Of a DNA stretch of 34,750 bases, positions 1,439-31,236 are shown piece by piece; the stretch's first letter is position 1; the number at the start of each line of letters is the position of its first letter. This stretch comes from a virus (taxonomy: Duplodnaviria; Heunggongvirae; Uroviricota; Caudoviricetes). The DNA is taken from the IMG/VR virus record IMGVR_UViG_2875703104_000001; one strand, given 5' to 3'. A program made the position numbers and the translations under genes. Under the pieces are notes generated by a model. It was not told where the DNA came from and ran no database searches. It saw only the letters and a program-made list of their open reading frames with translations.

Positions 1439-2602
1439 TCACTCATCATCTTCTGTTTCGTACTCCACATCAGAAAGCCTTACCTCAAGCTCCAAAGACG
1501 TCGTGAAGCCGCTATTATTCAGAAAATGTGTCACCTTAGTGATTGTCCAGTCCTGCTCGTCTATGACACGCTTAAAGCCTGACACTTTGACCGGTGTTTC
1601 CGTGTAAATATCTGCCCGACCGGTAGCCAGGCTGATGGAGAACTCCGCAACACCCCGTTGCAGTTTATCCCACTTCGCCTGAGCGGCACGCATGGCCTGC
1701 GCTTTTGTGGCATATACCGTGGTCAGGGCAAAAACATTGTCAGCCTCACCGGCTATGTATTCACCTTCGCGCGCTTCAGGTACTTTTGGCGCTTTCTTCT
1801 GCGTGACCGGTTTCGCTTTCGGGTGCTCCAGTGCGCGCAGGTGTTTTTCTTTCTTTTTGCGTTTCAGTTTTACCTTCTGCTTTTGCGGCTTCGGGTCTTT
1901 GGTGTGTAACCACTTTGCCGTTACGCCGGTATAGGCTCCGCGGTCAGCAATCGCAAAATGATGACAGTCGCCGTCGCTGCGGGTGATGGTAATCTGCGGG
2001 ATTTTTTTACCGCTGGCCGTCACGCCCTGCCCCGCTTTGAGAAACAGCAGTTTTCCCATTTTTACCGACACCTCACCGCCGTTGCGTTCTGCAAGACGGG
2101 TCAGGAATTTCGCATCAGACTCCTGCGACTGGTCGATGTGCGGGATTTTAATTCCGGCCAGTGACGGAGTGACACTGGCTTCCAGCCTGTTACGGGAGGC
2201 TATCGCCTCAACAATCGCACCGAGCGTGGTGTCATGCCATGAGCCTTCCCGGCGGGAATTGAACGTCCCGCGAAAATCTGCACTCCGGGCGCGGATGGTA
2301 ACCACATCCGGCGCGCCCCGGTGTTCAACCTCATCAACGGTAAATTTCCCTTTGCATACCAGGGCAAAACCTTTCCAGCCGATATACACCGTCAGGACAG
2401 CGCCACGAACCGGCAGCCCGACCTGCCCGTCGGCATCGTTCAGTTCAATATCAAGCTGGTCAGCCTCAAAGCCCCGGTTATCCGTCAGGGTCATGCTCAT
2501 CAGACGGTCGCTGATATTGCCGGTAATATCCCTGCTGTCGAGCATCAGCATGTAATCCGGCGTCAGCGTACTGCCTGCATCAAATGTCAGTGCATCCAGC
2601 AT
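1439..2602 (-). CDS. D: Tail protein gpD (387 aa)
   Basis: Position directly upstream of ogr; length equals P2 gpD as recalled; synteny D-U-T. Confidence 0.88.
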   Translation of the reverse strand: MLDALTFDAGSTLTPDYMLMLDSRDITGNISDRLMSMTLTDNRGFEADQLDIELNDADGQVGLPVRGAVLTVYIGWKGFALVCKGKFTVDEVEHRGAPDVVTIRARSADFRGTFNSRREGSWHDTTLGAIVEAIASRNRLEASVTPSLAGIKIPHIDQSQESDAKFLTRLAERNGGEVSVKMGKLLFLKAGQGVTASGKKIPQITITRSDGDCHHFAIADRGAYTGVTAKWLHTKDPKPQKQKVKLKRKKKEKHLRALEHPKAKPVTQKKAPKVPEAREGEYIAGEADNVFALTTVYATKAQAMRAAQAKWDKLQRGVAEFSISLATGRADIYTETPVKVSGFKRVIDEQDWTITKVTHFLNNSGFTTSLELEVRLSDVEYETEDDE

Positions 2603-3081
2603 TATCCCGCCCCCGTCATATCCGTGAATTTAGTCGCCATACTGCCAGCCTTACCGATGAGCGATTCTGCCTGTTTACCGATATCGCCATAAAGCGCGGC
2701 CAGTGATTCATCAACGCGGGTGAGCGACAGCGTAAAATCAATTTTTCGGGGTGTGCCGTCTGCAAAGAAAATACTCCCTGTTTCACTCACCCTGCTGATG
2801 ACATACATGCCGTAAATCATGCCGGTGCCATCCAGCAACGGCCACGCCCGACCTTCCTCTGCCATCAGTCTGAGCGTGGTCATCGTCAGCTTTCCGCCGG
2901 TCAGTTCGGGATAAAGCACACCGGCAAGCGTGATGTTTTCCTCGCCAACACCGAGAAACTGAAAGGCATCCCGTTTACCGATACGGGAATTTGACGGCCA
3001 GCGATAATCTGATTCACGCTGCATGGTCTGGTGTGGCAGCGTCTGGCGCATAAAAACAAACATACCTAACGCGAGCATCAT
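2602..3081 (-). CDS. U: Tail protein gpU (159 aa)
   Basis: Length and position match P2 gpU; stop/start overlap with D is typical translational coupling. Confidence 0.88.
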   Translation of the reverse strand: MMLALGMFVFMRQTLPHQTMQRESDYRWPSNSRIGKRDAFQFLGVGEENITLAGVLYPELTGGKLTMTTLRLMAEEGRAWPLLDGTGMIYGMYVISRVSETGSIFFADGTPRKIDFTLSLTRVDESLAALYGDIGKQAESLIGKAGSMATKFTDMTGAG

Positions 3082-3095
3082 TTTTCGTCACCTCC

Positions 3096-5963: not shown

Positions 5964-6019
5964 GGTTTTCTCACTTCTGAATCAGGGTTAACCGGTCAGC
6001 CAGGCTGACCGGATGAAAA

Positions 6020-6538
6020 TCACAGGCCGATATTTCGGCGGTGTTGCTCCAGCCGGTCGACGCCGTTCACCTTCTCAATCATGTTGATGGTGTCGATTTC
6101 GACCAGCTCCTTACCGTCCATCGTCAGCCGGAAATAGGTGCAGACCACGGAGATTTTCGACTCGGTGTCTTCTCCCTGTTTACCCTCGCCGGTGTCGATT
6201 TCTTTCTGACGTCCACGCATGACCACTTCGACGGCCACCGTTTCGCCGGTATCGTCGCGCTGGTAAGAGCCTGCAAAACGAATCGGCACGGCATCCACAC
6301 CGGTTGCGGCGTAAAGCTCCCAGATAACCGAATCCGGGAAGCCCCCGAGCGACCACTCCATTGACAGCGCATCGTCATCAAGGCCGAGGTCTACCGGTGC
6401 GCTGCCGTTCATCCCCGCACCGCGATAGTTTTCGAGCTTACGGGTCAGTTTTGGCAGCGTGACGGACTTTGCAACGCCCTGATAGCTGTAGCCGTTCAGA
6501 AAGACGTTCATTAACTTGAGTTTGCGCGGCATTGCCAT
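6020..6538 (-). CDS. FII: Major tail tube protein gpFII (172 aa)
   Basis: Length and position match P2 FII; follows FI. Confidence 0.88.
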   Translation of the reverse strand: MAMPRKLKLMNVFLNGYSYQGVAKSVTLPKLTRKLENYRGAGMNGSAPVDLGLDDDALSMEWSLGGFPDSVIWELYAATGVDAVPIRFAGSYQRDDTGETVAVEVVMRGRQKEIDTGEGKQGEDTESKISVVCTYFRLTMDGKELVEIDTINMIEKVNGVDRLEQHRRNIGL

Positions 6539-6550
6539 CGGTCATGCTCC

Positions 6551-7741
6551 TTAATTGCTGTTAACCGAGGTGACCAGATTTGCCAGGTATTTATCAGTAA
6601 TACGCTGGCGCAGGGTCAGGTTTTCAAGAGGAGGCACCGGGGTATAGTCGTAGTCGATATACAGTTTTCCGGCCTTGAGGGTTTCCGCATCGTTGGATTC
6701 TTCACTGAACCAGCAGGTCGCATCCACGATATAGCCGTTTGTTTTCAGCTCACGGAATTTGGCATTGATGCCGTCAACGATGTCGCGAATCAGCGTTGCG
6801 GTGATGGGCTTGTCCACCGCCCACATGTGCGCCTCAGCCATCGTGTCGGCCAGCACCTGCGCGGTGCGGGTGTAGTTTTCAAAGAGGAACAGCGGGTCAT
6901 CAGAGCAGGTACGGTTACCCCAGAACCGGAAACCGTCACGGCGAATCAGCGTTGTGACGCCTGACTCGTTAAGCAGGTCAGCATCGGTGCCGGACTCCTG
7001 CAAATCCCAGAATACAGATGCGCTGATGCCGGTAACACCGTTCACCCCGACATTGGACAGCGTTTTATGCCAGCCCTGCTCCTGGTCGATTTTAGCGCGC
7101 AGACCCAGCGCACGGGCGGTGGCATACGCGGTGGCGGTGGTACTGGTGACCGTATCCCATGCGAGGAAATCCGGCCAGATGACCATCAGCTCACGCTGGC
7201 TGAAATTCTGGCGGTAGGCTTTCACCTCGGAAATGGTCTTACAGCCCCATGCGCTGATATATCCGAAAGCGCGCAGCTTCTGACAGACTGATGCCAGTGC
7301 AACAGCCACCTCTTTGGTATCCAGCCCCGGCACACCAAGAATACGCGGTTTAACACCGGTTACCGACTCTGCCGCCAGCAGGGCTTTCAGTCCGGTATAC
7401 TGACCATTTTCGTCGGTGGTGCCGATGATATTGGAAACGGTCTGCGCGAGCTTCGTTTCTTCGTCATCGCCGGTGCCGTCTTCCACGCGCACGACAACGG
7501 TGACCGGTTTTGACTGGTCAGCGATGGCCTGCAACGATGCCGCCAGCGTGCCTTTTTTACCGGCCTTTGCAATTGCACTCTGCACATTGGTAATCAGCAC
7601 CGGTTTATTGAGGGGGAAGGTTTCCGCATCCGCATCGCTGGCCGTGCAGACCATGCCGACAATGGCAGTGGATACGGTGGAAATGACGCGGGTGCCGTCG
7701 TTAATCTCCAGCACCTGCACGCCGTGATGATAGTCACTCAT
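6551..7741 (-). CDS. FI: Contractile tail sheath protein gpFI (396 aa)
   Basis: Length and position match P2 FI; first gene of the FI-FII-E-T-U-D operon. Confidence 0.9.
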   Translation of the reverse strand: MSDYHHGVQVLEINDGTRVISTVSTAIVGMVCTASDADAETFPLNKPVLITNVQSAIAKAGKKGTLAASLQAIADQSKPVTVVVRVEDGTGDDEETKLAQTVSNIIGTTDENGQYTGLKALLAAESVTGVKPRILGVPGLDTKEVAVALASVCQKLRAFGYISAWGCKTISEVKAYRQNFSQRELMVIWPDFLAWDTVTSTTATAYATARALGLRAKIDQEQGWHKTLSNVGVNGVTGISASVFWDLQESGTDADLLNESGVTTLIRRDGFRFWGNRTCSDDPLFLFENYTRTAQVLADTMAEAHMWAVDKPITATLIRDIVDGINAKFRELKTNGYIVDATCWFSEESNDAETLKAGKLYIDYDYTPVPPLENLTLRQRITDKYLANLVTSVNSN

Positions 7742-8222
7742 CCGTTTAACTCCGTGGTTAATGGGTGAGTGGTATTTTCAGTTGTACCCGAGATGTCAGA
7801 CTATTTGTCCCGGTTGGCTAATCGACAGCACAACCACCGGTAAAGAAAAGGCGGGCAATTCGCTCGCCTGTCCTGATTTGTACTCACTTATTTCCCGACT
7901 GACAATTTACATAGCCAAAACGCTATCAAATCTGACAGTCTGCTTTGAGCGAGAAGCAGGCCTTACACTGTAATCAGCATAGAATAGGATGCAGAATCGC
8001 TAAACAAATAGATGTCTGTCAGAGTAGTGGCTTTTAGTGGAAATCTATAGTTGCTATAGCTCAGATAATTAAGTGCCGTCTCTGTCCGCAACTCTAGTCA
8101 GAGTTTATTGCACAGGGGAAATAAATAAGTGCATGTGAATCATTGTCACGAAACAGTAAATATTCGTCATGGGTCATCATATCACTATTTATATGTGTCA
8201 GAGTTGATACCCACCACTGAAA

Positions 8223-9269
8223 TCACTTTCCAAACTTATTAAATTGTTCAGCAATGAAATCAATATACTCATTACCTTGGCCGTTATGCCTGAATTTTTG
8301 CTGCCCTTCGAAATCTAAATTAGGTGAAAAATGAATTATTTGGTTATCTTCATACAGTTTTAAAGGAGAATAAAATGACAATGATTTATCATTCAATAAT
8401 TGACGCACTCCTGTTATAGCACTACCAATCAAAATATCACATAATTGAACTGCCGGGCTTAGTTTTGAATCAACTTGGTGAACATGCTCAAGCTTTAATG
8501 GGAATTTAATACTGGCGATTTCAGACATCTTAAACTCGGCTGGCGTCTGACATTTGATAAGCATCGAAAGATATTCATTGTATTGTAAAAGATTTTTAGA
8601 ACGATCATGCTCAATGCTATACGGTCCCTCTGACATTAATTCAGTGCGTGATATTAGTGCTTGAAGAATAACAAATGCTGCATCAGTAGAAATTTTTGGA
8701 TTAGTTATTGCCGTAATACAATCTGGATGCTCTAAAGCTAGTGGCCCCAGCACTTCCGGTAATAGACGCCAATTCACGGCCCTAACGTTCGCAATAAGGT
8801 TATTTACTGCTGTGTGCGTTTTCTCATGCATCGCATTTTGAAAAGATATTAGGATATTATCAAAATCTCTACCAAAGTAGCTTTGGCAGACATAGTAAGC
8901 CATTGATGCCATAGAAACGTTTCCACCATTTTCGTATAGATTTATCCCATGGTCATAGTAAAAAGGCTCTACCGCATACTCAATAAACATTTGAATTAGA
9001 ATCAAACGTTTATCGGCAACACAAGTAACACATGGAAAATTGGCAAGTAGTTCCTGTTGCAAAGTAAAAATTGGTTTTTGATAACTATCTCGCTTTTTAA
9101 GAGAGCTAAATTTCAATTCAGGGGCTTTGTGTTTAGGAAAATGTTGTCTGATAAGATGAAGAGCATCGTCATGACTAATCTTTACAGCGCTGGCCCCTTG
9201 CCAAGGTTGTGACTTTTGAAGAAGATCTCGCCCAGTGTAACCAGACTCATCAATTGAAAATATACTCAT
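8223..9269 (-). CDS. Cargo protein, DUF3800-like (348 aa), function unknown; candidate defence or moron gene
   Basis: N-terminus MSIFSIDESGYTG resembles the DUF3800 signature (hydrophobic-x-IDESG) and a C-terminal VQLCDILIGSAI resembles the DUF3800 QxADxxA-type motif. Gene is markedly AT-rich and sits at the P2 Z/fun position between FI and G. Confidence 0.6.
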   Translation of the reverse strand: MSIFSIDESGYTGRDLLQKSQPWQGASAVKISHDDALHLIRQHFPKHKAPELKFSSLKKRDSYQKPIFTLQQELLANFPCVTCVADKRLILIQMFIEYAVEPFYYDHGINLYENGGNVSMASMAYYVCQSYFGRDFDNILISFQNAMHEKTHTAVNNLIANVRAVNWRLLPEVLGPLALEHPDCITAITNPKISTDAAFVILQALISRTELMSEGPYSIEHDRSKNLLQYNEYLSMLIKCQTPAEFKMSEIASIKFPLKLEHVHQVDSKLSPAVQLCDILIGSAITGVRQLLNDKSLSFYSPLKLYEDNQIIHFSPNLDFEGQQKFRHNGQGNEYIDFIAEQFNKFGK

Positions 9270-9548: not shown

Positions 9549-10934
9549 TCAACGCATGCTTTTTGCGGTCTTATCTTGCTCCCAATGTGTGACACCTTCG
9601 ACCCCACGCGTCGAGTCAGATGTAAGCATCAATGGCTGTCTAAGGAAGAGCCCCATCAAATCCGGGACACGGGCAAAGTCTTGAACAGTCTCAGCCCACT
9701 CATAGTTGTCCTCTAATGGGTAATAATTAACGGCATGCAGGAAAGCACCCAACACGGTTGTTTTAGAGGCATCGTAGGCCGAGATATGCTCCATGTTTTT
9801 ATCCCTACGTAGTTCTTCAATATCTATGCCTTCGCAAGTCTCATACCAAATATGCACCACGCCAGCACGATCAGGGGGAATCTGCATGACTCCATCATTG
9901 AGCAAGCTCTTGAAATGCTTGGATCTGAGGCCAAGAGAAATCTCATGATCGCAGCACCACTGAGCTCCAACGCACTTTGCAACATCCTCTACAAAAATGT
10001 TGAGAATATCGTTATTGGTGCCAGGACGAATAACTCTCTGAGCGATAGTCGAGATACTTCGTTTCTCATTGCTATCTAGATCCCCAAATACCAGCAATTC
10101 ATGCTGTGGGCTATTGGCTCTGACTGAAAATTTTCTGTAGTGACGTCTGAGACCTAATTTGTCGATGGCTCGTATTCCCACACTGATTGAACCTTCATTA
10201 GCTTTTCCCGTCCCCCCTTTAATGGCTAGATTCACCGCTTTAATAACGTCTGCCGGAGTCACACTGGCGACCTGCTCATGGAAAATTATATCGACAATGT
10301 TCCATGGTGCGACTTTGAGCATATGTTGGCTCAATTGATGCCAGATGTTGGCCCAGGCTTGCTCTTCTGTCTTTGAGTACTTGGTTTGCTTATCCGACCT
10401 TTTGCACTCGACGTAGAACTCCAGATCACCTAACTTGACGAGCATATCCGGTGATTTTTTGGTCTTTCCATCGGGCCAAACAATGCTGCTTTCTGGGATG
10501 AAGGCAACCTCATAGCCGTTCTTTAGGTAGAACGATGCCGTCAGCAGCTCAAAAATTTGAGTTTCTGGTTTATTGTTATTTGCTAGCATTTTGTCCAGAA
10601 CATCATCGACGTATGGGACTTTGCGAAGCTGGTCTGCAACAGCTCCGATGGCCATAGCATAGGGGTAGATACGTCTGCTGCTGTAAGTAGCATCACTATA
10701 TGGAAAATCATGAGACAGATACGACGCCAGAATGTACCAGTCGATGTCATCTTCTGCTGGTATGAAGAGCTGGGGCTCTATCGGCAGATTGATGTTAAAC
10801 TTAGCCTCCTTCTCTCTTATGCGCTTGAAATATGCAGCTTTGCGAGCAGCCCAGGCCTCAGTTCCAAGCCTATCCACAAGCAACTGATAAAAAGCTTTTG
10901 TTCTTAAACGCTCAACACTACTGACACTATCCAT
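9549..10934 (-). CDS. Cargo protein of unknown function (461 aa) with a possible PD-(D/E)xK nuclease-like motif
   Basis: AT-rich ORF with no recognisable P2 counterpart. The segment SPDMLVKLGDLEFYVECK has PD...E-x-K spacing compatible with a restriction-endonuclease-like core; this is weak, motif-only evidence. Confidence 0.55.
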   Translation of the reverse strand: MDSVSSVERLRTKAFYQLLVDRLGTEAWAARKAAYFKRIREKEAKFNINLPIEPQLFIPAEDDIDWYILASYLSHDFPYSDATYSSRRIYPYAMAIGAVADQLRKVPYVDDVLDKMLANNNKPETQIFELLTASFYLKNGYEVAFIPESSIVWPDGKTKKSPDMLVKLGDLEFYVECKRSDKQTKYSKTEEQAWANIWHQLSQHMLKVAPWNIVDIIFHEQVASVTPADVIKAVNLAIKGGTGKANEGSISVGIRAIDKLGLRRHYRKFSVRANSPQHELLVFGDLDSNEKRSISTIAQRVIRPGTNNDILNIFVEDVAKCVGAQWCCDHEISLGLRSKHFKSLLNDGVMQIPPDRAGVVHIWYETCEGIDIEELRRDKNMEHISAYDASKTTVLGAFLHAVNYYPLEDNYEWAETVQDFARVPDLMGLFLRQPLMLTSDSTRGVEGVTHWEQDKTAKSMR

Positions 10935-23416: not shown

Positions 23417-25189
23417 ATGACCATCACCACAGACACCACTCTTTTACACGACCCGCGTCGTCAGGCGGCGCTGCTGTACTGGCAGGGGTTTTCCGTGCCG
23501 CAGATTGCCGCCATGTTGCAGATGAAACGCCCGACGGTGCAGAGCTGGAAACAGCGCGACGGCTGGGACAGCGTTGCCCCCATCAGCCGTGTCGAAATGA
23601 GTCTGGAAGCGCGGCTGACCCAGCTCATCATCAAACCGCAGAAAACCGGCGGTGACTTCAAGGAAATTGACCTGCTGGGACGCCAGATTGAACGACTGGC
23701 ACGGGTAAACCGTTACAGTCAGACCGGCAACGAGGCAGACCTTAATCCGAACGTCGCTAACCGCAACAAAGGCGGGCGTCGCAAACCGAAAAAGAATTTT
23801 TTCAGTGACGAGGCCATCGAAAAGCTGGAGCAGATTTTCTTTGAGCAGTCTTTCGACTATCAGTTGCACTGGTATCGCGCCGGGCTTGAGCACCGCATCC
23901 GCGATATCCTGAAATCCCGCCAGATTGGCGCGACGTTTTATTTTTCCCGCGAGGCGCTGCTGCGCGCCCTGAAAACCGGTCATAACCAGATTTTTCTGTC
24001 GGCCAGTAAAACGCAGGCGTATGTGTTCCGTGAATACATCATCGCCTTTGCCCGGCTGGTTGACGTTGACCTGACCGGTGACCCGATTGTCCTGGGCAAT
24101 AACGGCGCAAAACTGATTTTTCTCGGCACCAACTCCAACACCGCACAGAGCCATAACGGCGACCTGTACGTCGATGAGATTTTCTGGATCCCGAATTTTC
24201 AGGTACTGCGTAAGGTGGCATCAGGTATGGCCTCACAGAGTCACCTGCGCTCGACCTATTTCTCCACCCCGTCCACGCTGGCGCACGACGCCTACCCGTT
24301 CTGGTCGGGTGAACTGTTCAACCGGGGACGCGCCAGCGCCGCCGAACGCGTGGAAATCGACGTCAGTCATAACGCCCTTGCCGGTGGGCTTCTCTGTGCG
24401 GACGGCCAGTGGCGGCAGATTGTCACCATTGAGGACGCCCTGAAAGGTGGCTGCACGCTGTTCGACATTGAGCAGCTCAAACGTGAAAACAGCGCCGACG
24501 ATTTTAAAAACCTGTTCATGTGTGAATTTGTTGACGACAAGGCGTCGGTGTTCCCGTTCGAGGAGCTGCAACGCTGCATGGTCGACACGCTGGAAGAATG
24601 GGAAGACTATGCGCCGTTTGCCGCCAATCCGTTCGGCTCCCGCCCGGTATGGATTGGTTACGACCCGTCACACCGTGGCGACAGCGCCGGATGCGTGGTG
24701 CTGGCACCGCCGGTGGTGGCCGGTGGCAAATTCAGAATACTTGAGCGTCACCAGTGGAAAGGCATGGACTTTGCCACCCAGGCGGAATCCATCCGCAAAC
24801 TCACCGAAAAATATAACGTTGAATACATCGGGATTGATGCCACCGGCCTCGGTGTCGGCGTGTTCCAGCTCGTGCGCTCGTTCTATCCCGCCGCGCGCGA
24901 TATCCGCTACACGCCGGAAATGAAAACCGCAATGGTGCTCAAGGCAAAAGACGTTATCCGCCGTGGCTGTCTGGAATATGACGTCAGCGCCACCGACATC
25001 ACCAGCTCGTTTATGGCTATCCGCAAGACCATGACCAGCAGCGGACGCAGCGCCACCTATGAGGCCAGCCGCAGCGAGGAAGCCAGCCACGCCGACCTCG
25101 CCTGGGCGACCATGCACGCCCTGTTAAATGAGCCACTCACCGCCGGTATCAGCACCCCGCTGACATCCACCATTCTGGAGTTTTACTGA
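23417..25189 (+). CDS. P: Terminase ATPase (large) subunit gpP (590 aa)
   Basis: MTITTDTTLLHDPRRQAALLYWQGFSVPQIAAMLQMKRPTVQSW matches P2 gpP as recalled; the ORF-track start at 23387 adds 10 codons. Confidence 0.9.
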   Translation: MTITTDTTLLHDPRRQAALLYWQGFSVPQIAAMLQMKRPTVQSWKQRDGWDSVAPISRVEMSLEARLTQLIIKPQKTGGDFKEIDLLGRQIERLARVNRYSQTGNEADLNPNVANRNKGGRRKPKKNFFSDEAIEKLEQIFFEQSFDYQLHWYRAGLEHRIRDILKSRQIGATFYFSREALLRALKTGHNQIFLSASKTQAYVFREYIIAFARLVDVDLTGDPIVLGNNGAKLIFLGTNSNTAQSHNGDLYVDEIFWIPNFQVLRKVASGMASQSHLRSTYFSTPSTLAHDAYPFWSGELFNRGRASAAERVEIDVSHNALAGGLLCADGQWRQIVTIEDALKGGCTLFDIEQLKRENSADDFKNLFMCEFVDDKASVFPFEELQRCMVDTLEEWEDYAPFAANPFGSRPVWIGYDPSHRGDSAGCVVLAPPVVAGGKFRILERHQWKGMDFATQAESIRKLTEKYNVEYIGIDATGLGVGVFQLVRSFYPAARDIRYTPEMKTAMVLKAKDVIRRGCLEYDVSATDITSSFMAIRKTMTSSGRSATYEASRSEEASHADLAWATMHALLNEPLTAGISTPLTSTILEFY

Positions 25190-26223
25190 TGAGCAAGAAA
25201 AAAGGGAAAACACCGCGACCAGCGGCAAAAACAATGACCGCCAGCGCCCCGAAAATGGAGGCATTCACCTTTGGTGAGCCGGTGCCGGTACTCGACCGCC
25301 GTGACATTCTGGATTACGTCGAGTGCATCAGTAACGGCAGATGGTATGAGCCACCGGTCAGCTTTACCGGTCTGGCAAAAAGCCTGCGTGCTGCCGTACA
25401 TCACAGCTCGCCAATTTACGTCAAACGCAATATTCTGGCCTCGACATTTATCCCGCACCCGTGGCTTTCCCAGCAGGATTTCAGCCGTTTTGTGCTGGAT
25501 TTTCTGGTGTTCGGTAATGCGTTTCTGGAAAAGCGTTACAGCACCACCGGTAAGGTCATCAGACTGGAAACCTCACCGGCCAAATATACCCGTCGTGGCG
25601 TGGAGGAGGATGTTTACTGGTGGGTGCCGTCCTTCAACGAGCCGACAGCCTTCGCGCCCGGCTCCGTGTTTCACCTGCTGGAGCCGGATATTAATCAGGA
25701 GCTGTACGGCCTGCCGGAATATCTCAGCGCCCTTAACTCTGCCTGGCTGAATGAATCGGCCACGCTGTTCCGCCGCAAGTATTACGAAAACGGCGCACAT
25801 GCCGGATACATCATGTACGTCACCGATGCCGTGCAGGATCGCAACGATATCGAAATGCTTCGCGAAAACATGGTTAAGTCGAAAGGCCGCAATAACTTTA
25901 AAAATCTGTTTCTCTATGCCCCTCAGGGGAAAGCCGACGGCATTAAAATTATCCCCCTCAGTGAAGTGGCAACGAAGGACGATTTTTTTAATATCAAAAA
26001 ATCCAGCGCCGCTGACCTGCTGGACGCGCACCGCATCCCCTTTCAGTTGATGGGCGGCAAGCCGGAGAACGTCGGGTCGCTGGGTGATATTGAGAAAGTG
26101 GCAAAGGTCTTTGTCCGCAATGAGCTTATCCCGTTACAGGACAGGATTCGGGAAATAAACGGCTGGCTCGGTCAGGAGGTCATCCGCTTTAAAAACTACT
26201 CACTGGACACTGACAACGGCTGA
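25189..26223 (+). CDS. Q: Portal protein gpQ (344 aa)
   Basis: Length and synteny match P2 gpQ; start overlaps the P stop. Confidence 0.9.
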   Translation: MSKKKGKTPRPAAKTMTASAPKMEAFTFGEPVPVLDRRDILDYVECISNGRWYEPPVSFTGLAKSLRAAVHHSSPIYVKRNILASTFIPHPWLSQQDFSRFVLDFLVFGNAFLEKRYSTTGKVIRLETSPAKYTRRGVEEDVYWWVPSFNEPTAFAPGSVFHLLEPDINQELYGLPEYLSALNSAWLNESATLFRRKYYENGAHAGYIMYVTDAVQDRNDIEMLRENMVKSKGRNNFKNLFLYAPQGKADGIKIIPLSEVATKDDFFNIKKSSAADLLDAHRIPFQLMGGKPENVGSLGDIEKVAKVFVRNELIPLQDRIREINGWLGQEVIRFKNYSLDTDNG

Positions 26224-26392: not shown

Positions 26393-26411
26393 GTGCTTTC
26401 CCCGCCTCGCC
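26393..26411. other. cos: cos site: 19-nt cohesive-end sequence of P2 type
   Basis: GTGCTTTCCCCGCCTCGCC is the reverse complement of the P2 cohesive end GGCGAGGCGGGGAAAGCAC as I recall it; located about 170 bp past Q, as in P2. Confidence 0.75.
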
Positions 26412-26531
26412 CGCCCGCTTCGTGGGACGATTTTAATGCAGTTGCCCGCATTAGCTGAATCCGCGCCAGAACAGACATTATGGATATGTCAATACGAACT
26501 TATTGACGTGCAAAATCATGCAATCAAGCGC

Positions 26532-26557
26532 AAAAAAAACCGCCTTCAAAGAGGCGG
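26532..26557 (-). terminator. Rho-independent terminator downstream of the kinase-HIRAN gene (minus strand)
   Basis: Plus strand AAAAAAAA-CCGCCT-tcaaag-AGGCGG; on the minus strand this is a hairpin followed by U8, about 20 nt after the stop at 26577. Confidence 0.7.
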
Positions 26558-26576
26558 TTTATGTTATCCCATTGGA

Positions 26577-28220
26577 TTAAGATCTACATTCAACTAAAAG
26601 GTACACTAATGGACGTTCTGGCGTCCCATTCTTCTTTGCAACAAAAGCAGATATTTTGTGTTTTGCTATTTTTTGCTTGAGTTTTTTACATAACACTTTG
26701 TTTATATAACCAAGTTTCCCGCTCTCATGAACAACAGCTATAGCATGTGGATCAACCGGGTTATCCTCTTCAGGAACAAGCTTGACCAAATCACCGACCA
26801 TTACTTTCGACAAATCAAGCCCTTCCTGATAACGAGTTCCTGCCACTTCAAAAAGAAGCTCACCTTCACTATTAAGAATTTCTGGATCTGGCACCAAACA
26901 AAAACCATCGCCAGGTGATTTTGCTCCTGTATATCCTAACAGCGCAAAATCAGAGCCTTCAAATGGATGGGGGAGCAAATGTTGAGCCAGATACTCAGCA
27001 AAGTCTTTTCTTTTCCGTGGTGGTAAACGCCGAACAAACGGGTCAAGCACGTTGTTCGTATGTTCTTCACTTTTCAGACTAAATGCGGGATGTCCTGCAA
27101 ACCCTTTCTCTTGGGCTTTAGCATAATCTTCTGACTGAAAATGGTATGTGAAGACGTAGTTATCCCCTTGCTGACGATCAATCTGACCAACAACATAACG
27201 AGTACCGCCTGTGGGTGGCTGCCATGTAAGAAGCAACCGAGTAGGCTCCATTATTCTGTTTATAGTACGCATATTTAGAATCAGTGATAACCTTAGGTAT
27301 CTACGCCTCAATAAACGAATCGTCCAATCCGCTCGTTCCCTAGTGAACGGCACATCGGAGCTAATTTCGCAAAGTGAATCTATCTTGTCGACCAGTTCCT
27401 GAAAATCAAATTCAAGTCTCCGGGCCAAGTACGCTTTTGACTGCTCATCAAGAGCCAAATCCTGTATAGAAGAAATATGACCTAATCGTTCATGCGTGTC
27501 TGCCCGATTCTTCCGCAAATGATGACAACCACGCTGTATGTATTCATCTACATTTTGATGGTTCCATCCTCTGATCCTCTCTACATACCTTTCATGCCCC
27601 AAACTAGTACCATTATCGAAATATGGTGCGAGATATCCCTTCACTTTAGGTGGCGTTATGCCTGGTGCAGATTCAGGTACAAAAACAAAACCCCAATTCT
27701 CTTGGTGTCTATCACTATTACCGATGAGCGCATCAAAAAGCAGCATATCGTAAAGCCATTGGATCCAGTCTGGAGAGATCAGGCCGCGGATACTAAAAGC
27801 CCTACAAATTAAGCGTAGATCAACAAGGTTATGGTGTCTTCCGGAAGAGTCATCAAAATCCGATATCAACACATGAAAAAAATCAGACGCATGAACAAAT
27901 AACTGGCTACTTTGATCGTAAAACCACTCAAGCAAAGCTCCATATTCGTATTCACCGTTCTCCATCATTCTTCGCGCTGGCAATGCTTTAGGAACAGGAA
28001 CGCCCATAACATCTCCAACTATATAAGCAACGGTTTCCATCCAGTACTGATCGGGATAAGCATCTCTTGAGAGTTTAAAAAGATAAGGCCATTCCGGTTT
28101 TATCCCCTCAGGAGCATCATTCGGTGACCAAAGCATTTTTTTATCCCTCGCTCCTCGAGGAAAAATGCCATGCTCATCATCTTTACGCCAACTAGTTACA
28201 TCTATTAAATTGATATCCAT
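26577..28220 (-). CDS. HipA-like Ser/Thr kinase domain protein with C-terminal HIRAN-like domain (547 aa); candidate defence or toxin effector
   Basis: LFDALIGNSDRHQENWGFVF fits the HipA-family catalytic loop (GNxDxHxxN) and LAPYFDNGTSLG the downstream HipA motif. C-terminus LFEVAGTRYQEG...LVPEEDNPVDPHAIAVVHESGKLGYINK fits the HIRAN signature. Gene is AT-rich and sits between cos and A. Confidence 0.65.
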   Translation of the reverse strand: MDINLIDVTSWRKDDEHGIFPRGARDKKMLWSPNDAPEGIKPEWPYLFKLSRDAYPDQYWMETVAYIVGDVMGVPVPKALPARRMMENGEYEYGALLEWFYDQSSQLFVHASDFFHVLISDFDDSSGRHHNLVDLRLICRAFSIRGLISPDWIQWLYDMLLFDALIGNSDRHQENWGFVFVPESAPGITPPKVKGYLAPYFDNGTSLGHERYVERIRGWNHQNVDEYIQRGCHHLRKNRADTHERLGHISSIQDLALDEQSKAYLARRLEFDFQELVDKIDSLCEISSDVPFTRERADWTIRLLRRRYLRLSLILNMRTINRIMEPTRLLLTWQPPTGGTRYVVGQIDRQQGDNYVFTYHFQSEDYAKAQEKGFAGHPAFSLKSEEHTNNVLDPFVRRLPPRKRKDFAEYLAQHLLPHPFEGSDFALLGYTGAKSPGDGFCLVPDPEILNSEGELLFEVAGTRYQEGLDLSKVMVGDLVKLVPEEDNPVDPHAIAVVHESGKLGYINKVLCKKLKQKIAKHKISAFVAKKNGTPERPLVYLLVECRS

Positions 28221-28229
28221 ATCTTACGG

Positions 28230-28781
28230 TTACCCAGCTAATGCACGGAAAGCAGCACTAACATAAGCTACCTGAAACTTTGCATCTCGAAGCGCATGAT
28301 GCGCATCAGTAACATTAATGGAAAAATTTGCCCTTACATCAATATTCTTAAGGCTTTTAGCTAGTTCAACGATGGTACGCACGTCTCGATCATTTCGAAA
28401 ACGCCATGGGATATTTTGCGCATGTTTACGGTAAACCGCTGCCAATATAGCGTTATCAAAGCTTGCCCCATTCCCCCAAACTTGTACGTCATCGTTACTA
28501 CGACTTCGTACAAATAGAGAAAATTCTTGTAAGGCTTCATGTAAGTCAACAGCAGACGGGTCATTAAAAACCGCCCTTGCAGAATCGCTTTGTATCATCC
28601 ACCACTGTAAAGTTTTTGGGTCTACAAAACTATTTTCCAATGCAGATGATAGGGTTATAACTCTATAAAACTCATCCCCACACTTGCCAGTCAGAGGCTC
28701 AAAGAACACAGCGCCGATTGAAATCAAAGGAGCATCCATTGACACACCTAATGTTTCTATATCGAGCATTAAATTATTCAT
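28230..28781 (-). CDS. DEDDh-family (DnaQ/RNase T-like) 3'-5' exonuclease (183 aa)
   Basis: Exo I motif LDIETLG (D-x-E), central FDNAIL aspartate and C-terminal AHHALRDA (H-x4-D). GGAGG ribosome-binding site 4 nt before the ATG; 9-nt gap to the kinase gene suggests one operon. Confidence 0.7.
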   Translation of the reverse strand: MNNLMLDIETLGVSMDAPLISIGAVFFEPLTGKCGDEFYRVITLSSALENSFVDPKTLQWWMIQSDSARAVFNDPSAVDLHEALQEFSLFVRSRSNDDVQVWGNGASFDNAILAAVYRKHAQNIPWRFRNDRDVRTIVELAKSLKNIDVRANFSINVTDAHHALRDAKFQVAYVSAAFRALAG

Positions 28782-28921
28782 TTAACCTCCACCCCAGACA
28801 TAGCTCAGGGAAACGTAACCTATTGAAATAACGAATCAAGTATTTGTCACATTCTATACTAAAACATTCGAATTCCAAAACTTCAGCTTTTGCAACCCCT
28901 TACAAGTCAATTGATCCATAA

Positions 28922-28959: not shown

Positions 28960-31236
28960 TCAAGGGAAATCATTAAAACCCGGCCAATCACAACAAGGCG
29001 GATAAACAAATTTTTTCATGTCATAAATAACTTCTGCCCCACGAGCCAGCGCCTCAAGCTCCCATCTCTGAGGCCTGATACCGTTCTGAGCAAGGTCAAC
29101 GCGGATACGGGTGATTTGCAATCGTTCAGACCGGGTCAGTCTGGCCGATGGTGCAATTTCATGCGGTTTTAACGGGCTTCCGTTTCTTTGCTGACGGTTT
29201 GGTCTTCTCAGGCCGTATTTTAATGCACCTCTGAGCGCCCTCACGACCTCCGGGTCATTCCATTCGATAACACCGTCATCAACCAGATTAAGCACTGCTG
29301 CGGCGTGCTCAGAAGGTGTGGGAGCCAGTAACGAAGTATCACCACCGGTGAGCTTTCCACAGTTATTGACAGGACTCCGAGGCGCGGCGATGCCGCTTTT
29401 TAAAGTCAAAGGCTCAACGACCGGAACTTTCGGCACAATGCGCCAGTCCGTCGTTCTGGTGATATGAATATGACGCGCGCCGAGATGCGGCGCGTAAATG
29501 CCGACCACTCTCTCGACTTCTTCCTCGTACTCGTTAACGTCATCCGACGGACTACGGGCGACCCTGACAGTCTGACAATCGCGCGGGACATTTGCCCCGC
29601 CCTGCGCGCTGATATACAGCGCAAAATCGCCACTGTCTGCGGCAGCGCGTGCAGCCTCCACGCGTTCGTCAAACTCATCAGCAATACTGACGCCGCGAGG
29701 CAATTTACGTAGTTCACGGTAAGCCCCCATTGTCGGCAGTCCAACCGTTTTAAATTGCGGGATGCGCCACGTTGACGCCCATGCGGTAACAGCCGCGGCA
29801 GTATCTTTAAGCGGCTTACCGGTATCGTTATCGAGCTGACCATCCAGTGCATAGCCGTCGATATTTTTTGAAATGTATTTCGCGATATATCCCGCAGCAC
29901 CGCCCCGGTTAAGATGCTTTGCCTGAAAACGGTTTCGCGCGGCTCCTCTTTCGTCACCATCCTCTTTGAGCGCATAGCGACGCATGATTTCGATAATCTG
30001 GTTACGCTGGCGTGGATTACAAAAAAGCATCATATGCCAGTGCGGCGTTCCGTCGTGGTGTGGCTCGACGACACGCAAACCGTAGACCTGTAAATCATTA
30101 TCCTTGAATGCCGTACGCATCAGGCTCCAGATACGGCAGAGATAACGCTGCGCATCCTTTGGATTAAATGCCTCATCATTCCAGCCGTGATTAAGCTGGA
30201 CGGTTTTACTTTCGCCTTTTCCGACCTGACGTGTCGGATGATACTTTGACGGCGCGGTCATCGTGATAAACATCCCCACATCACCCTCTGCGGCGGCGTA
30301 ACGCTCAATTCCGGCGATGGTGTTCATCAGCTCCATCCGGCGAATTTCAGGATTAGAAATACTGCCCATCACCTTACTGATAAGGTCGATGCGCTCGCCG
30401 GTTTCCCTGTTTTCAAGGTCACACGATTTAAGAAATTCCAGATTTGCCTGGCGGCGCGCACGCACATCACGAATGGCATGTTTACTGGCATAAGGAGAAC
30501 GGTCTTTATTGACCTCCCCGACAGCAATCAGTAACGCCTCATGCCAGCGCATACGCTGGCCTTTAAGCTGATGAGTCCACCACTCATCGTTAAACAGACG
30601 GGCAATGGCAGAATATGCCTGCCTCGTGGTCATCTGTCCTTTACGGTATTTTTTCCAGTAGAGCGGGGAAATATTGAAAGCACGTGCAGCGCCAGCAACA
30701 TGACCATACAGGTGAGCCTGCGCCTCATCCGTAAACAGCGATTCTTTTTCGCCATGCGCATCCACCCAGGCATCGCAGAGTTCCTCATACATCATGAAAA
30801 GCTGCGATGAGATTCGGGCGGCAAACTTTTTCAGCTCCTTGTCATTCATCCCCGGCAGGCGCGCATACTGGTCGCGCTCTGCCAGAAACAGCAACGACGC
30901 GTCGGTGTTCATTTCATGGCGCTGATTCACGCGCTCAATGCGCGGCCATAAACGACGCTGAAAAGTGGATGTGAGGAAATAAAACCCGTGCACCGGGCTT
31001 TTATTGCGCCGGATGTAGTCATAGCGTGAAGTAAACAGCGAACGCAAAAAGTAAGGCAGGCGGTTAATCGTGGATAAAACACCTTGCACCTGACGCATCT
31101 CGTCACGTGTAAGGGGTCTTTCGCGCCCGACAGCCTCGCGTGGCGCGTTCCATGCATAAGCACCGGTAAACGCCTTACCGGTGCCTGCGGCAAATGCTGA
31201 CGGAGGGACAAAACGCCCGGAGGCTTTAACGGCCAT
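28960..31236 (-). CDS. A: Replication initiation protein gpA (rolling-circle HUH endonuclease), about 758 aa
   Basis: Contains the HUH motif (GTPHWHMMLF) and the P2 gpA-like N-terminus MAVKASGRFVPP. The ORF-track start at 31278 is 14 codons further upstream; start choice is uncertain. Confidence 0.88.
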   Translation of the reverse strand: MAVKASGRFVPPSAFAAGTGKAFTGAYAWNAPREAVGRERPLTRDEMRQVQGVLSTINRLPYFLRSLFTSRYDYIRRNKSPVHGFYFLTSTFQRRLWPRIERVNQRHEMNTDASLLFLAERDQYARLPGMNDKELKKFAARISSQLFMMYEELCDAWVDAHGEKESLFTDEAQAHLYGHVAGAARAFNISPLYWKKYRKGQMTTRQAYSAIARLFNDEWWTHQLKGQRMRWHEALLIAVGEVNKDRSPYASKHAIRDVRARRQANLEFLKSCDLENRETGERIDLISKVMGSISNPEIRRMELMNTIAGIERYAAAEGDVGMFITMTAPSKYHPTRQVGKGESKTVQLNHGWNDEAFNPKDAQRYLCRIWSLMRTAFKDNDLQVYGLRVVEPHHDGTPHWHMMLFCNPRQRNQIIEIMRRYALKEDGDERGAARNRFQAKHLNRGGAAGYIAKYISKNIDGYALDGQLDNDTGKPLKDTAAAVTAWASTWRIPQFKTVGLPTMGAYRELRKLPRGVSIADEFDERVEAARAAADSGDFALYISAQGGANVPRDCQTVRVARSPSDDVNEYEEEVERVVGIYAPHLGARHIHITRTTDWRIVPKVPVVEPLTLKSGIAAPRSPVNNCGKLTGGDTSLLAPTPSEHAAAVLNLVDDGVIEWNDPEVVRALRGALKYGLRRPNRQQRNGSPLKPHEIAPSARLTRSERLQITRIRVDLAQNGIRPQRWELEALARGAEVIYDMKKFVYPPCCDWPGFNDFP

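What the first reader, a model, noticed from the sequence alone, without database searches (positions are those of the whole stretch)
26577..28220. Unusual domain architecture: HipA-like kinase fused to a C-terminal HIRAN-like domain
The N-terminal half has the HipA-family catalytic loop (LIGNSDRHQENWGF) and a downstream APYFDNGTS motif. The last roughly 90 residues (VAGTRYQEG...EEDNPVDPHAIAVVHESGKLGYINK) look like a HIRAN domain, which in eukaryotic HLTF-type proteins binds 3'-OH ssDNA ends. A toxin-type kinase wired to a DNA-end sensor inside a prophage is not an architecture I recognise as characterised.
Basis: partly seen in the sequence, partly recalled or inferred. Interest (0 to 1): 0.75.

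Follow-up and report, generated by a model that had tools for sequence, protein, structure and literature searches.

The report
HipL kinase in P2 prophage hotspot
The gene is real and does encode a HipA-type toxin kinase joined to a DNA-end-binding HIRAN domain, but this architecture is already named (HipL), this very E. coli prophage cassette has already been cloned and screened for phage defence without a detected effect, and its function remains untested biochemically.

Summary
The ORF at 26577-28220 lies on the minus strand and encodes 547 aa. [quoted passage not shown] Sequence profiles and AlphaFold/Foldseek agree on all three.

The architecture is not new. Gerdes et al. 2021 (mBio) named it the HipL family and proposed that HIRAN senses phage DNA ends to trigger abortive infection. 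PADLOC lists the two-gene form as candidate PDC-M03.

The gene sits in the cos-proximal gpA-gpQ defence hotspot of a P2-like E. coli prophage. It is the second gene of an AT-rich two-gene cassette, 9 nt after a DEDDh 3'-5' exonuclease.

Rousset et al. 2022 cloned this identical cassette (pFR108, 'Exonuclease + HipA'). They list it only among 'additional tested systems', not among those validated against their eight phages.

What I add:
- The fused form was found only in Enterobacterales-type loci and Aeromonas, among mostly split hipI-hipN relatives.
- The exonuclease-kinase pairing holds down to 48% identity, including outside P2 prophages.
- It parallels the published diDNase-HipA-HIRAN linkage in Gram-positive bacteria.

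Verdict: already known in kind, mechanism still unproven, modest interest.

The parts
26577..28220 (-). hipL coding sequence, 547 aa (RefSeq WP_023253881.1, 'HIRAN domain-containing protein')
   Evidence: ORF; RefSeq annotation; Pfam and PADLOC hits. The start at M1 is supported by conservation of residues 6-28, which include the Gly-rich loop G23-A-R25-D-K27, across 33 fused and 38 split homologues.
27261..28220 (-). HipA-type Ser/Thr kinase core (aa 1-320) without HipA N-subdomain-1. Motifs: Gly-rich loop aa 23-27, catalytic loop GNSDRHQEN with D170, Mg-binding DNG with D202.
   Evidence: Pfam HipA_C aa 23-206. PADLOC PDC-M03A aa 4-308, E 3.8e-31. Kinase profile against the PDB: CtkA E 2.6e-12 and HipT 1e-4, with D170 and D202 aligned to the catalytic and Mg-binding Asp of HipT. 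Foldseek: CtkA, HipA and HipT. D170, D202 and K49 are invariant.
26901..27245 (-). HipS-like domain (aa ~326-440), homologous to HipA N-subdomain-1 and to the HipS antitoxin; the presumed in-cis inhibitor of the kinase
   Evidence: Pfam Couple_hipA aa 343-437, 26.7 bits, above the cut-off. The model of the C-terminal half (pLDDT 92.9) matches Legionella HipS in the HipS-HipT complex, 8ezr_A: E 3.6e-3, TMt 0.71, rmsd 3.5 A. Described for the HipL family in PMC8262856.
26586..26864 (-). HIRAN domain (aa ~453-545), the predicted binder of 3'-OH DNA ends
   Evidence: Pfam HIRAN E 1.4e-10. A profile of HipL/HipN C-termini against the PDB gives lp_0118 (3k2y) at 4e-10 and HLTF HIRAN at 4e-7. Foldseek HLTF HIRAN E 1.9e-5, rmsd 2.6 A. 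N487, D490, A493 and G504 are invariant, and R463/Y464 are conserved.
28230..28781 (-). DEDDh 3'-5' exonuclease, 183 aa (WP_001774096.1); first gene of the cassette, ending 9 nt before the hipL ATG
   Evidence: Pfam Rv2179c-like E 6.8e-57. phrog_255 'exonuclease'. PDB 8kel 'Exodeoxyribonuclease' E 1.7e-5. Catalytic residues D7, E9, D109, H161 and D166 are invariant in six orthologues. Strong GGAGG Shine-Dalgarno sequence before the ATG.
28851..28878 (-). sigma-70-like promoter candidate for the exonuclease-hipL cassette (TTGGAA-16-TAGAAT)
   Evidence: Consensus scan only. It lies between the gpA stop (28960) and the exonuclease start (28781). Function not shown.
26537..26560 (-). intrinsic terminator-like hairpin (9-bp stem plus T-run), 17 nt after the hipL stop codon
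26393..26411 (.). P2-type cos site: exact 19-nt match to the sequence I recalled as the P2 cohesive end. It marks the cos-proximal variable region.
   Evidence: Exact single match, 0 expected by chance. That this sequence is the P2 cohesive end is my own knowledge. Rousset et al. place the P2 hotspot next to cos, between gpA and gpQ.
25189..26223 (+). P2-type portal gene (gpQ), one boundary of the hotspot
   Evidence: RefSeq 'phage portal protein' in the identical locus.
28960..31236 (-). P2-type replication endonuclease gene (gpA), the other boundary of the hotspot
   Evidence: RefSeq 'replication endonuclease'; ORF.

Best explanation
This is a HipL-family kinase carried as accessory cargo in the cos-proximal defence hotspot of a P2-like E. 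coli prophage. It is co-transcribed with a DEDDh 3'-5' exonuclease.

The most likely function is a self-contained sensor-effector for abortive infection or superinfection exclusion, working in four steps:
1. In the resting cell the HipS-like domain holds the kinase core inactive in cis, as HipS does for HipT in trans. This is inferred by homology.
2. The HIRAN domain binds free 3'-OH DNA ends, or short DNA fragments, that appear when a foreign phage replicates, recombines or degrades DNA. This is inferred from the fold and from conserved pocket residues.
3. Binding displaces the HipS-HIRAN module and frees the kinase. This is inferred.
4. The kinase phosphorylates an essential translation component, by analogy with HipA acting on GltX and HipT on TrpS, and so stops growth before the invader completes its cycle. 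The target is unknown.

The partner exonuclease probably trims 3' ends. That would keep the background signal low, including signal from the prophage's own rolling-circle replication, or set the activation threshold. This part is speculative.

What is shown here: the domain architecture, intact catalytic motifs in both enzymes, the hotspot location, the cassette structure and its conservation.

What is not shown: toxicity, DNA binding, the target, and any defence phenotype.
For: Architecture and intact motifs.

Location:
- The gene lies between gpA and gpQ, next to an exact cos site. This is the P2 locus that holds old/tin and that Rousset et al. showed to be a reservoir of defence systems.
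- The cassette looks horizontally acquired: 38-44% GC against 51-58% in the flanks. It has its own promoter-like site and terminator.

Relatives sit in defence-type contexts:
- Split hipI-hipN directly follows a type I R-M HsdS gene in 5 loci. This is the 'embedded gene' criterion behind PADLOC's PDC candidates.
- Others sit beside prophage repressor/integrase modules.

Module integrity: the kinase and the HipS-HIRAN part are adjacent or fused in 76 of 79 species-level loci spanning many phyla.

Exonuclease linkage:
- 9-nt gap, or overlapping ORFs.
- Conserved in E. coli, Klebsiella, Atlantibacter, Yersinia and Serratia P2-like prophages, and in non-P2 settings: a Proteus islet, a metagenome contig and a primase/Mob element with a split kinase.
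- Exonuclease identity tracks HipL identity.
- In complete E. coli genomes each gene occurs in 61 of 5426, and a 2.5-kb query spanning both matches 61 genomes over at least 80% of its length.

Independent parallel: NrnC-like diDNases sit beside HipA + HIRAN genes in about one third of 93 Gram-positive loci (PMC11706625). The same sensing hypothesis was proposed by Gerdes et al..
Against: - The identical cassette, with its native promoter on a pSC101 vector in MG1655, was tested by Rousset et al. against lambda, T4, P1, 186cIts, CLB_P2, LF82_P8, AL505_P2 and T7. It appears only in Table S2B, not among the validated systems. The authors note that their small panel underestimates activity.
- I found no published toxicity, DNA-binding or phosphorylation data for any HipL or HipN protein.
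- By my manual motif alignment, the position equivalent to the regulatory Ser beside the Gly-rich loop of HipA and HipT is F20, which is near-invariant. Control would therefore have to differ from HipA and HipT.
- The HLTF stacking residue Y93 corresponds to a variable position here (V489).
- The exonuclease family is very common in phages that have no HipL (686 phage records). It is absent from the Aeromonas fused gene and from about 70 split loci, so it is not an obligatory component.
- I could not inspect model coordinates, so docking of the HipS-like domain on the kinase is not verified.
Confidence: 0.45

Rival explanations
1. The cassette serves the prophage's own life cycle rather than defence. 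HipL would sense P2's own replication or packaging intermediates (gpA-nicked 3'-OH ends, cos ends) and modulate host translation or the timing of lysis. Alternatively it stabilises lysogeny.
For: The gene lies immediately next to cos and to the rolling-circle initiator gpA. No defence was detected in the published screen. The pair travels with P2-like phages in five genera.
Against: The same exonuclease-kinase pair occurs outside P2 prophages (Proteus islet, L096, L010). Most relatives are chromosomal, embedded in R-M operons or in other elements. Within E. coli the locus is a highly variable cargo slot, with 1,650 arrangements, not a conserved phage function. Only 61 of 5426 complete genomes carry the cassette.
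Confidence: 0.15
2. It is a DNA-end processing or repair accessory. The exonuclease and the HIRAN protein would act together on DNA 3' ends, and the kinase would regulate DNA-metabolism proteins by phosphorylation, with no toxin-like growth arrest.
For: HIRAN domains in HLTF/Rad5 work in replication-fork remodelling (my own knowledge; PMC8262856). DEDD exonucleases associate with the module repeatedly.
Against: Every characterised member of the HipA kinase superfamily with a HipS-type partner is a translation-targeting toxin (PMC8262856). The genomic contexts are mobile-element and defence contexts, not repair operons. The cassette has a patchy, horizontally transferred distribution.
Confidence: 0.1
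3. It targets relatives or satellites (other P2-like phages, or P4-type satellites) rather than unrelated phages. This is a narrower form of the defence model, and it would explain the negative result on a general panel.
For: At least one P2-hotspot system (from phage AC1) excludes P2 itself. P2 and P4 both replicate from nicked or primed 3' ends and share cos.
Against: Phage 186cIts, a P2 relative, was in the tested panel and no activity was reported. Rousset et al. found that most hotspot systems do not target P2-like phages.
Confidence: 0.15
4. It is non-functional or decaying cargo, spread clonally with one successful prophage.
For: All 61 E. coli copies are at least 99% identical, which is consistent with recent spread rather than long maintenance. 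One copy looks frameshifted. There is no phenotype in the published screen.
Against: Full-length orthologues at 40-95% identity across Enterobacterales-type loci and Aeromonas keep every catalytic and HIRAN motif, and the ORF stays intact. The exonuclease catalytic pentad is invariant. The kinase + HipS-HIRAN module is preserved across phyla.
Confidence: 0.05

Closest known systems
[quoted passage not shown]
   Same: The three-domain order is identical: core kinase without N-subdomain-1, HipS-like domain, C-terminal HIRAN. There is no separate antitoxin gene. The same sensing hypothesis has been published.
   Different: The family was described as monocistronic. Here, and in the nine other fused-gene contexts with 48-69% identical HipL that I examined, the gene is the second cistron after a DEDDh exonuclease; only the Aeromonas locus (about 41%) lacks it. 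The paper does not discuss a prophage-hotspot setting (0 occurrences of 'prophage').
hipIN two-gene modules = PADLOC candidate PDC-M03 (HipI kinase + HipN = HipS-like + HIRAN)
   Same: The same domains in the same order. The window protein matches PDC-M03A with its N-half and PDC-M03B with its C-half. The kinase is 40-56% identical to HipI-type kinases.
   Different: There are two genes instead of one. The split form is by far the commoner: 74 of 76 classifiable species-level loci. PDC-M03 is an untested candidate.
HipBST / HipST tripartite toxin-antitoxin systems (E. coli O127, Legionella)
   Same: The kinase lacks the HipA N-subdomain-1, and a HipS-fold module supplies it. The middle domain matches Legionella HipS structurally (TMt 0.71), and the kinase matches HipT.
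   Different: Here HipS is fused C-terminally in cis. There is no HipB repressor. A HIRAN domain is added. By my manual alignment there is no Ser at the Gly-rich-loop autophosphorylation position.
HLTF/Rad5 HIRAN domain (3'-OH DNA-end binding)
   Same: The fold matches (rmsd 2.6-3.8 A over about 96-100 columns). The motifs R-Y and N-x-x-D-x-x-A align (R463/Y464, N487, D490, A493).
   Different: It is attached to a kinase rather than to a SNF2 helicase / RING ligase. The residue equivalent to Y93 is variable. DNA binding is untested.
diDNase-HipA-HIRAN gene clusters of Actinomycetes and Clostridia (Mortensen et al. 2025, NAR)
   Same: A DEDD-superfamily 3'-5' exonuclease gene lies directly beside HipA-kinase and HIRAN genes on mobile elements. 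The functional link is unexplained.
   Different: That exonuclease is NrnC-like and specific for DNA dinucleotides. The one here belongs to Pfam's Rv2179c-like family and shows no PDB sequence match other than 8kel/8ken at E <= 1. The association therefore looks independently acquired.
P2 old and tin exclusion genes
   Same: They occupy the same slot in the phage genome, between gpA and cos/gpQ.
   Different: The proteins and mechanisms are unrelated.

Membership tests
HipL family (HipA-homologous kinases, clade XI) | N-terminal HipA-type core kinase lacking N-subdomain-1, with the Gly-rich loop near the N-terminus, a catalytic motif and a Mg-binding motif | tested here: met
   G23-A-R-D-K27, D170 in GNSDRHQEN and D202 in DNG are all invariant in 33 fused and 38 split homologues. 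Profile and fold matches to CtkA, HipT and HipA. Pfam HipA_C scores 25.8 bits, slightly below its 30.5-bit cut-off.
HipL family (HipA-homologous kinases, clade XI) | Internal HipS-like domain | tested here: met
   Pfam Couple_hipA aa 343-437, above the cut-off. Foldseek match to HipS(Lp) 8ezr_A, TMt 0.71.
HipL family (HipA-homologous kinases, clade XI) | C-terminal HIRAN domain | tested here: met
   Pfam HIRAN E 1.4e-10. Profile against HLTF 4e-7. Foldseek E 1.9e-5.
HipL family (HipA-homologous kinases, clade XI) | No separate antitoxin gene (HipB/HipS/HipN) beside the kinase ('monocistronic') | tested here: met
   The neighbours are an exonuclease upstream and cos/portal downstream, with no HTH, HipS or HipN gene. 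However, the gene is not literally monocistronic: it is the second cistron after the exonuclease.
HipL family (HipA-homologous kinases, clade XI) | Phylogenetic placement in the Gram-negative HipL subclade | not tested
   I built no tree. Identity ranking (fused homologues 41-100%, then HipI-type kinases 40-56%) is consistent with that placement.
PADLOC PDC-M03 (two-gene defence candidate) | Both component profiles (A kinase, B HipS-HIRAN) present | tested here: met
   PDC-M03A E 3.8e-31 (aa 4-308); PDC-M03B E 1e-30 (aa 325-525).
PADLOC PDC-M03 (two-gene defence candidate) | Components encoded by two adjacent genes | tested here: not met
   One continuous ORF with no stop between the halves. 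It is a fused variant of the system.
Canonical HipBA type II toxin-antitoxin | Upstream HipB HTH antitoxin, and the HipA N-subdomain-1 at the N-terminus of the kinase | tested here: not met
   There is no HTH gene in the cassette. The Couple_hipA domain lies after the kinase core, not before it. The NCBIfam HipA/YjjJ model scores only 13 bits against a 401-bit cut-off.
HIRAN domain as a 3'-OH DNA-end binder (HLTF type) | Conserved pocket residues (HLTF R71/Y72, N91, Y93, D94) | tested here: inconclusive
   R463/Y464, N487 and D490 align and are conserved or invariant. The Y93 equivalent is V489 and is variable. The residue roles in HLTF are from my own knowledge of the HLTF structures. Binding itself is not testable here.
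Experimentally validated anti-phage defence system | Reproducible protection against at least one phage | not testable with these tools
   Literature: the identical cassette (pFR108) was tested on eight phages and is listed only among 'additional tested systems'.
DEDDh 3'-5' exonuclease, Rv2179c-like (partner gene) | Exo I/II/III motifs with D, E, D, H, D | tested here: met
   Pfam PF16473 E 6.8e-57 over the full profile. D7, E9, D109, H161 and D166 are invariant.

The most novel reading that the evidence does not exclude
The exonuclease is an integral third component. In this reading, HipA-HIRAN modules are receptors for free 3'-OH DNA ends or short oligodeoxynucleotides released during infection, and a dedicated DEDD exonuclease acts as a signal-clearing, threshold-setting enzyme, much as ring nucleases do in type III CRISPR. 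Two different DEDD subfamilies would then have been recruited to the module independently: the Rv2179c-like type in Enterobacterales-type loci and NrnC-like diDNases in Gram-positives. That would make this a DNA-fragment-sensing kinase immune pathway with built-in signal degradation.
Probability: 0.15. Interest if true: 0.7.

Novelty: already known. Interest (0 to 1): 0.3.

Why it matters
If HipL really couples recognition of DNA 3' ends to a translation-arresting kinase, it would be a compact, single-polypeptide example of nucleic-acid-end sensing in bacterial immunity. It would also give a prokaryotic function to the HIRAN domain, which so far is understood only in eukaryotic fork remodelling.

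The hypothesis is already published, and the cassette has already been screened once. The value here is therefore mainly practical. The report identifies a cloned, easily available E. coli example. It corrects the 'monocistronic' description for the fused genes with at least 48% identity. It also shows that DEDD 3'-5' exonuclease linkage occurs in this lineage as well as in the published Gram-positive clusters, which suggests that future assays should keep, or deliberately mutate, the exonuclease.

Tried and rejected
- **Single-sequence PDB search of the last 108 aa.** HLTF HIRAN scored only E about 1.2, which is not significant. A 20-sequence profile was needed to reach 4e-7.
- **NCBIfam.** It gave only a far sub-threshold YjjJ/HipA hit.
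- **Alternative start at M29.** Rousset's table annotates the protein from this position, and a Shine-Dalgarno-like GAGGAG precedes it. I rejected it as the main start because residues 6-28 are conserved and contain the Gly-rich loop. The SD-like string is itself the coding sequence for that loop.
- **Plus-strand ORFs of 53-106 aa inside the region.** These are shadow ORFs. None was pursued.
- **Exonuclease next to distant hipIN loci.** tblastn found none in about 70 loci. Ten upstream ORFs scanned with Pfam were HsdS, a cI-like repressor, sigma-70, HNH and others. A further ten were HsdS, an integrase, an SNF2 helicase and housekeeping genes.
- **Unannotated diDNase upstream of the HipA/HIRAN pair in Clostridioides phage phiCDKH02.** None was found.
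- **Literature searches for experimental work on HipL, HipN, hipIN or 'HIRAN-kinase'.** Nothing beyond the 2021 phylogeny paper.
- **Docking of the HipS-like domain on the kinase.** I could not test whether it docks as HipS does on HipT.
- **Unused tools.** I did not use the representative-library HMM search or the metagenome scan, because the family was already well sampled.
Full report
**1. Observation**

The coordinates 26577-28220 hold one ORF of 547 codons on the minus strand. The plus strand is full of stops.
- LIGNSDRHQENWGF at aa 165-178
- APYFDNGTS at aa 198-206
- VAGTRYQEG at aa 459-467
- EEDNPVDPHAIAVVHESGKLGYINK at aa 484-508

Pfam finds three domains, not two:
- HipA_C at aa 23-206 (25.8 bits, just under the 30.5-bit cut-off).
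- Couple_hipA, the HipA N-terminal or 'HipS-like' domain, at aa 343-437 (26.7 bits; cut-off 22.5).
- HIRAN at aa 453-525 (41.2 bits; cut-off 24.7).

An AlphaFold2 model built on 33 full-length homologues is confident (pLDDT 87.7, pTM 0.89). Foldseek against the PDB returns, for the N-terminal 320 residues, the HipA-like kinase CtkA (E 1.8e-10, TMt 0.75), HipA (E 1.7e-5) and HipT. For the C-terminus it returns the HLTF HIRAN domain (E 6.6e-4, rmsd 2.9 A, 99 columns).

A separate model of residues 322-547 (pLDDT 92.9) matches HLTF HIRAN at E 1.9e-5. It also matches the Legionella HipS antitoxin from the HipS-HipT complex (8ezr_A: E 3.6e-3, TMt 0.71).

**2. Catalytic integrity**

I aligned 33 fused homologues (40-95% identity) and 38 kinase-only homologues (39-56%).

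*Kinase.* The Gly-rich loop G23-A-R25-D-K27, K49, the catalytic-loop residues D170/N175 and the Mg-binding D202 are all invariant. A profile of these kinases aligns D170 and D202 with the catalytic and Mg-binding aspartates of HipT (7AB5 is the HipT D233Q mutant) and of CtkA.

*Start codon.* Conservation of residues 6-28 shows that M1 is the biological start, not M29 as in an older annotation.

*HIRAN domain.* A profile of HipL and HipN C-termini hits the bacterial HIRAN structure 3K2Y at 4e-10 and HLTF HIRAN at 4e-7. R463/Y464, N487, D490 and A493 align with HLTF R71/Y72, N91, D94 and A97. N487 and D490 are invariant even in distant HipN proteins. The roles of those HLTF residues in holding the 3'-OH end are from my own knowledge of the HLTF structures. 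The Y93 equivalent is variable here (V489).

*Autophosphorylation site.* By my manual motif alignment, the Ser that HipA and HipT autophosphorylate next to the Gly-rich loop corresponds to F20.

**3. Genomic setting**

The window is an E. coli P2-like prophage. RefSeq annotation of the identical locus reads, in order: capsid genes; terminase ATPase; portal; 'HIRAN domain-containing protein' (WP_023253881.1); '3'-5' exonuclease' (WP_001774096.1); replication endonuclease (gpA); Cox; repressor; integrase.

An exact copy of what I recall as the 19-nt P2 cohesive end lies at 26393-26411. The gene therefore occupies the cos-proximal slot between gpA and gpQ, where P2 itself carries old and tin. Rousset et al. 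2022 showed this slot to be a hotspot of anti-phage systems, with 1,650 arrangements in 18,150 loci.

The 26.5-29.0 kb stretch has 38-44% GC against 51-58% on both sides. This is typical of acquired cargo.

The exonuclease gene has a GGAGG Shine-Dalgarno sequence and a promoter-like TTGGAA-16-TAGAAT upstream. hipL starts 9 nt after the exonuclease stop codon. A 9-bp hairpin with a T-run follows hipL. This looks like one two-gene transcription unit.

**4. What is already known**

[quoted passage not shown] They described the two-gene form as hipIN. They noted that the HipS-like domain might regulate the kinase as HipS regulates HipT. They also proposed that HIRAN recognises DNA ends of invading phages to activate the kinase and cause abortive infection.

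*PADLOC.* The database carries the split form as candidate PDC-M03, and the window protein hits PDC-M03A with its N-half (E 3.8e-31) and PDC-M03B with its C-half (E 1e-30). PDC systems are untested candidates derived from genes embedded in BREX, DISARM and type I R-M operons.

*This cassette.* Rousset et al. list plasmid pFR108, 'Exonuclease + HipA', P2 locus, from E. coli TA255. The displayed start of its cloned DNA contains a 96-nt stretch identical to window 26436-26531. Both protein sequences, as far as the table displays them, are identical to the window's, with HipL annotated from M29 and cut off in the table.

pFR108 appears in Table S2B, 'additional tested systems', not in Table S2A, 'validated defense systems'. 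Only three of the eight additional P2 systems were active, and those were other systems. The panel was lambda, T4, P1, 186cIts, CLB_P2, LF82_P8, AL505_P2 and T7. The authors caution that the small panel underestimates activity.

Their Table S5 also lists 'DUF5051 + HIRAN' (WP_001774096 + WP_001774097) as a recurrent hotspot arrangement, together with a split 'DUF5051 + HipA_C + HIRAN' arrangement. Table S6 lists a 'HIRAN-kinase' in a Vibrio prophage hotspot.

*Gap.* I found no experimental characterisation of any HipL or HipN protein.

**5. What this analysis adds**

*(a) Distribution.* A scan of one genome per species returned 79 loci. In 76 of them a HipS-HIRAN homologue lies immediately after the kinase. 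These loci span Proteobacteria, Planctomycetota, Elusimicrobiota, Patescibacteria and others. Only two are fused, and both are the closest relatives (59-65% identity), Atlantibacter and an unclassified Pseudomonadota MAG.

Together with the protein search (fused homologues 41-100% identical; then about 310-aa kinases at 40-56%), this indicates that the Gram-negative HipL examined here is a lineage-restricted fusion, seen in Enterobacterales-type loci and Aeromonas, of a widespread hipI-hipN pair.

*(b) The exonuclease partner.* It belongs to Pfam's Rv2179c-like family (formerly DUF5051), E 6.8e-57. Its DEDDh residues D7, E9, D109, H161 and D166 are invariant. Its best solved relative is a 227-aa 'Exodeoxyribonuclease' (8KEL, E 1.7e-5).

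The exonuclease-then-kinase arrangement, with a 4-13 nt gap or overlapping ORFs, recurs in these places:

| Setting | Loci |
|---|---|
| Klebsiella 186/P2-like prophages | L003-L005 |
| Atlantibacter and an unclassified Pseudomonadota MAG | L016, L015 |
| Yersinia mollaretii | L094 |
| Serratia | L095 |
| Proteus mirabilis chromosomal islet with only an Ogr/Delta remnant | L006-L008 |
| Metagenome contig with a transposase (HipL 48% identical) | L096 |
| Primase/Mob element where the kinase is still split | L010 |

Exonuclease identity to the window (49-60%) follows HipL identity.

In complete E. coli genomes each gene is found in 61 of 5426, always once, at 99% identity or more. A 2.5-kb query spanning both genes also matches 61 genomes over at least 80% of its length.

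The partner is not universal. An Aeromonas fused gene sits between a cI-like repressor and an integrase without it. None of about 70 distant split loci has it within 4 kb. The exonuclease family is also common in phages in general (686 records).

So for the fused genes with at least 48% identity that I examined, 'monocistronic' is inaccurate.

*(c) A parallel in Gram-positives.* Mortensen et al. (NAR 2025, PMC11706625) found that about one third of 93 NrnC-like DNA-dinucleotide nucleases ('diDNases') in Actinomycetes and Clostridia are directly adjacent to HipA-domain and HIRAN-domain genes. They left the link unexplained. The window's exonuclease is from a different DEDD family. A DEDD 3'-5' exonuclease thus seems to have been recruited to HipA-HIRAN modules at least twice.

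*(d) Defence-type context of relatives.* Split hipIN follows a type I R-M HsdS gene by 23-28 nt in five loci (L022, L024, L025, L026, L062). Others sit by integrases or prophage repressors.

**6. Mechanism**

The best-supported reading is the published one, refined by the points above. It is a single-polypeptide toxin/antitoxin-like sensor. The HipS-like domain restrains the kinase in cis, and HIRAN binding of free 3'-OH DNA ends relieves the restraint. The kinase then phosphorylates an essential translation factor and arrests the cell.

The shown parts are architecture, motif integrity, context and module conservation. The inferred parts are inhibition in cis, DNA-end binding, the target and the phenotype.

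The role of the exonuclease is open. I favour background-signal removal or threshold setting, partly because P2's own gpA-initiated rolling-circle replication generates 3'-OH ends. This is speculative.

The main evidence against any defence role is the negative screen of the identical cassette. Against that, one native-promoter construct, one host and eight phages make a weak negative. I put 0.45 on the defence-sensor model.

The rivals, with their confidences, are:
- a role in the prophage's own cycle (0.15);
- specificity for P2 relatives or satellites (0.15);
- a DNA-end-processing accessory without toxicity (0.10);
- dead cargo (0.05). Motif invariance across 40-95% identical orthologues argues against this one.

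**7. Verdict**

The finding is real and the domain calls are correct. However, the architecture is named, the hypothesis is published, the split form is in a defence-candidate database, and this exact cassette has been cloned and screened. Novelty: already known in kind, with function experimentally unresolved.

The modest added value is threefold:
- the fusion is restricted to one lineage;
- the bicistronic exonuclease link is documented across contexts;
- it parallels the Gram-positive diDNase clusters, which suggests that the exonuclease should be treated as part of the system in future experiments.

Noticed in passing
window 8223-9269 (-) and 9549-10934 (-): A second cargo-like block among the tail genes. 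It holds a 348-aa DUF3800 protein (Pfam E 1.4e-5; phrog_12991, unknown function) and a 461-aa protein with no Pfam family (phrog_37220, unknown function). There is no convincing PADLOC hit. This may be the second variable region of P2-like phages.
   Followed up: partly
E. coli RefSeq records matching window 26400-28900 (e.g. NZ_CP054214.1, NZ_CP053251.2): In many complete assemblies the match lies at record positions 2337-4837. That puts base 1 of the chromosome record at the start codon of the prophage gpA replication gene (window ~31236). These assemblies appear to have been rotated to the prophage replication gene rather than to dnaA, which would be an assembly-pipeline artefact.
   Followed up: partly
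NZ_CM177114.1 (E. coli GN4738), 4691597-4693230: This hipL copy is 99.4% identical, its span is 10 nt shorter, and two annotated features lie under the match. It is probably a frameshifted or disrupted allele.
   Followed up: no
L022, L024, L025, L026, L062 (about 3.9-4.0 kb in each locus; 0.7 kb in L026): Split hipI-hipN pairs start 23-28 nt after a type I restriction-modification specificity (HsdS, Methylase_S) gene, so they are embedded in R-M operons.
   Followed up: partly
L003-L005 (Klebsiella prophages), 7920-9031: In Klebsiella P2/186-like prophages the exonuclease-hipL pair shares the hotspot with a further variable gene, either PIN_12 or DUF4145, and with DinI. Several cargo genes are thus stacked in one slot.
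   Followed up: no
L011/L012 (Vibrio harveyi), 6001-7621: A split hipIN pair lies directly next to a filamentous-phage module (Rep_trans, Zot). This is another mobile-element context for the family.
   Followed up: no
window 26436-26597 (+): A 53-aa ORF overlaps the cos-hipL intergenic region, the terminator and the last 21 nt of hipL. It is most likely spurious, and RefSeq does not annotate it.
   Followed up: no
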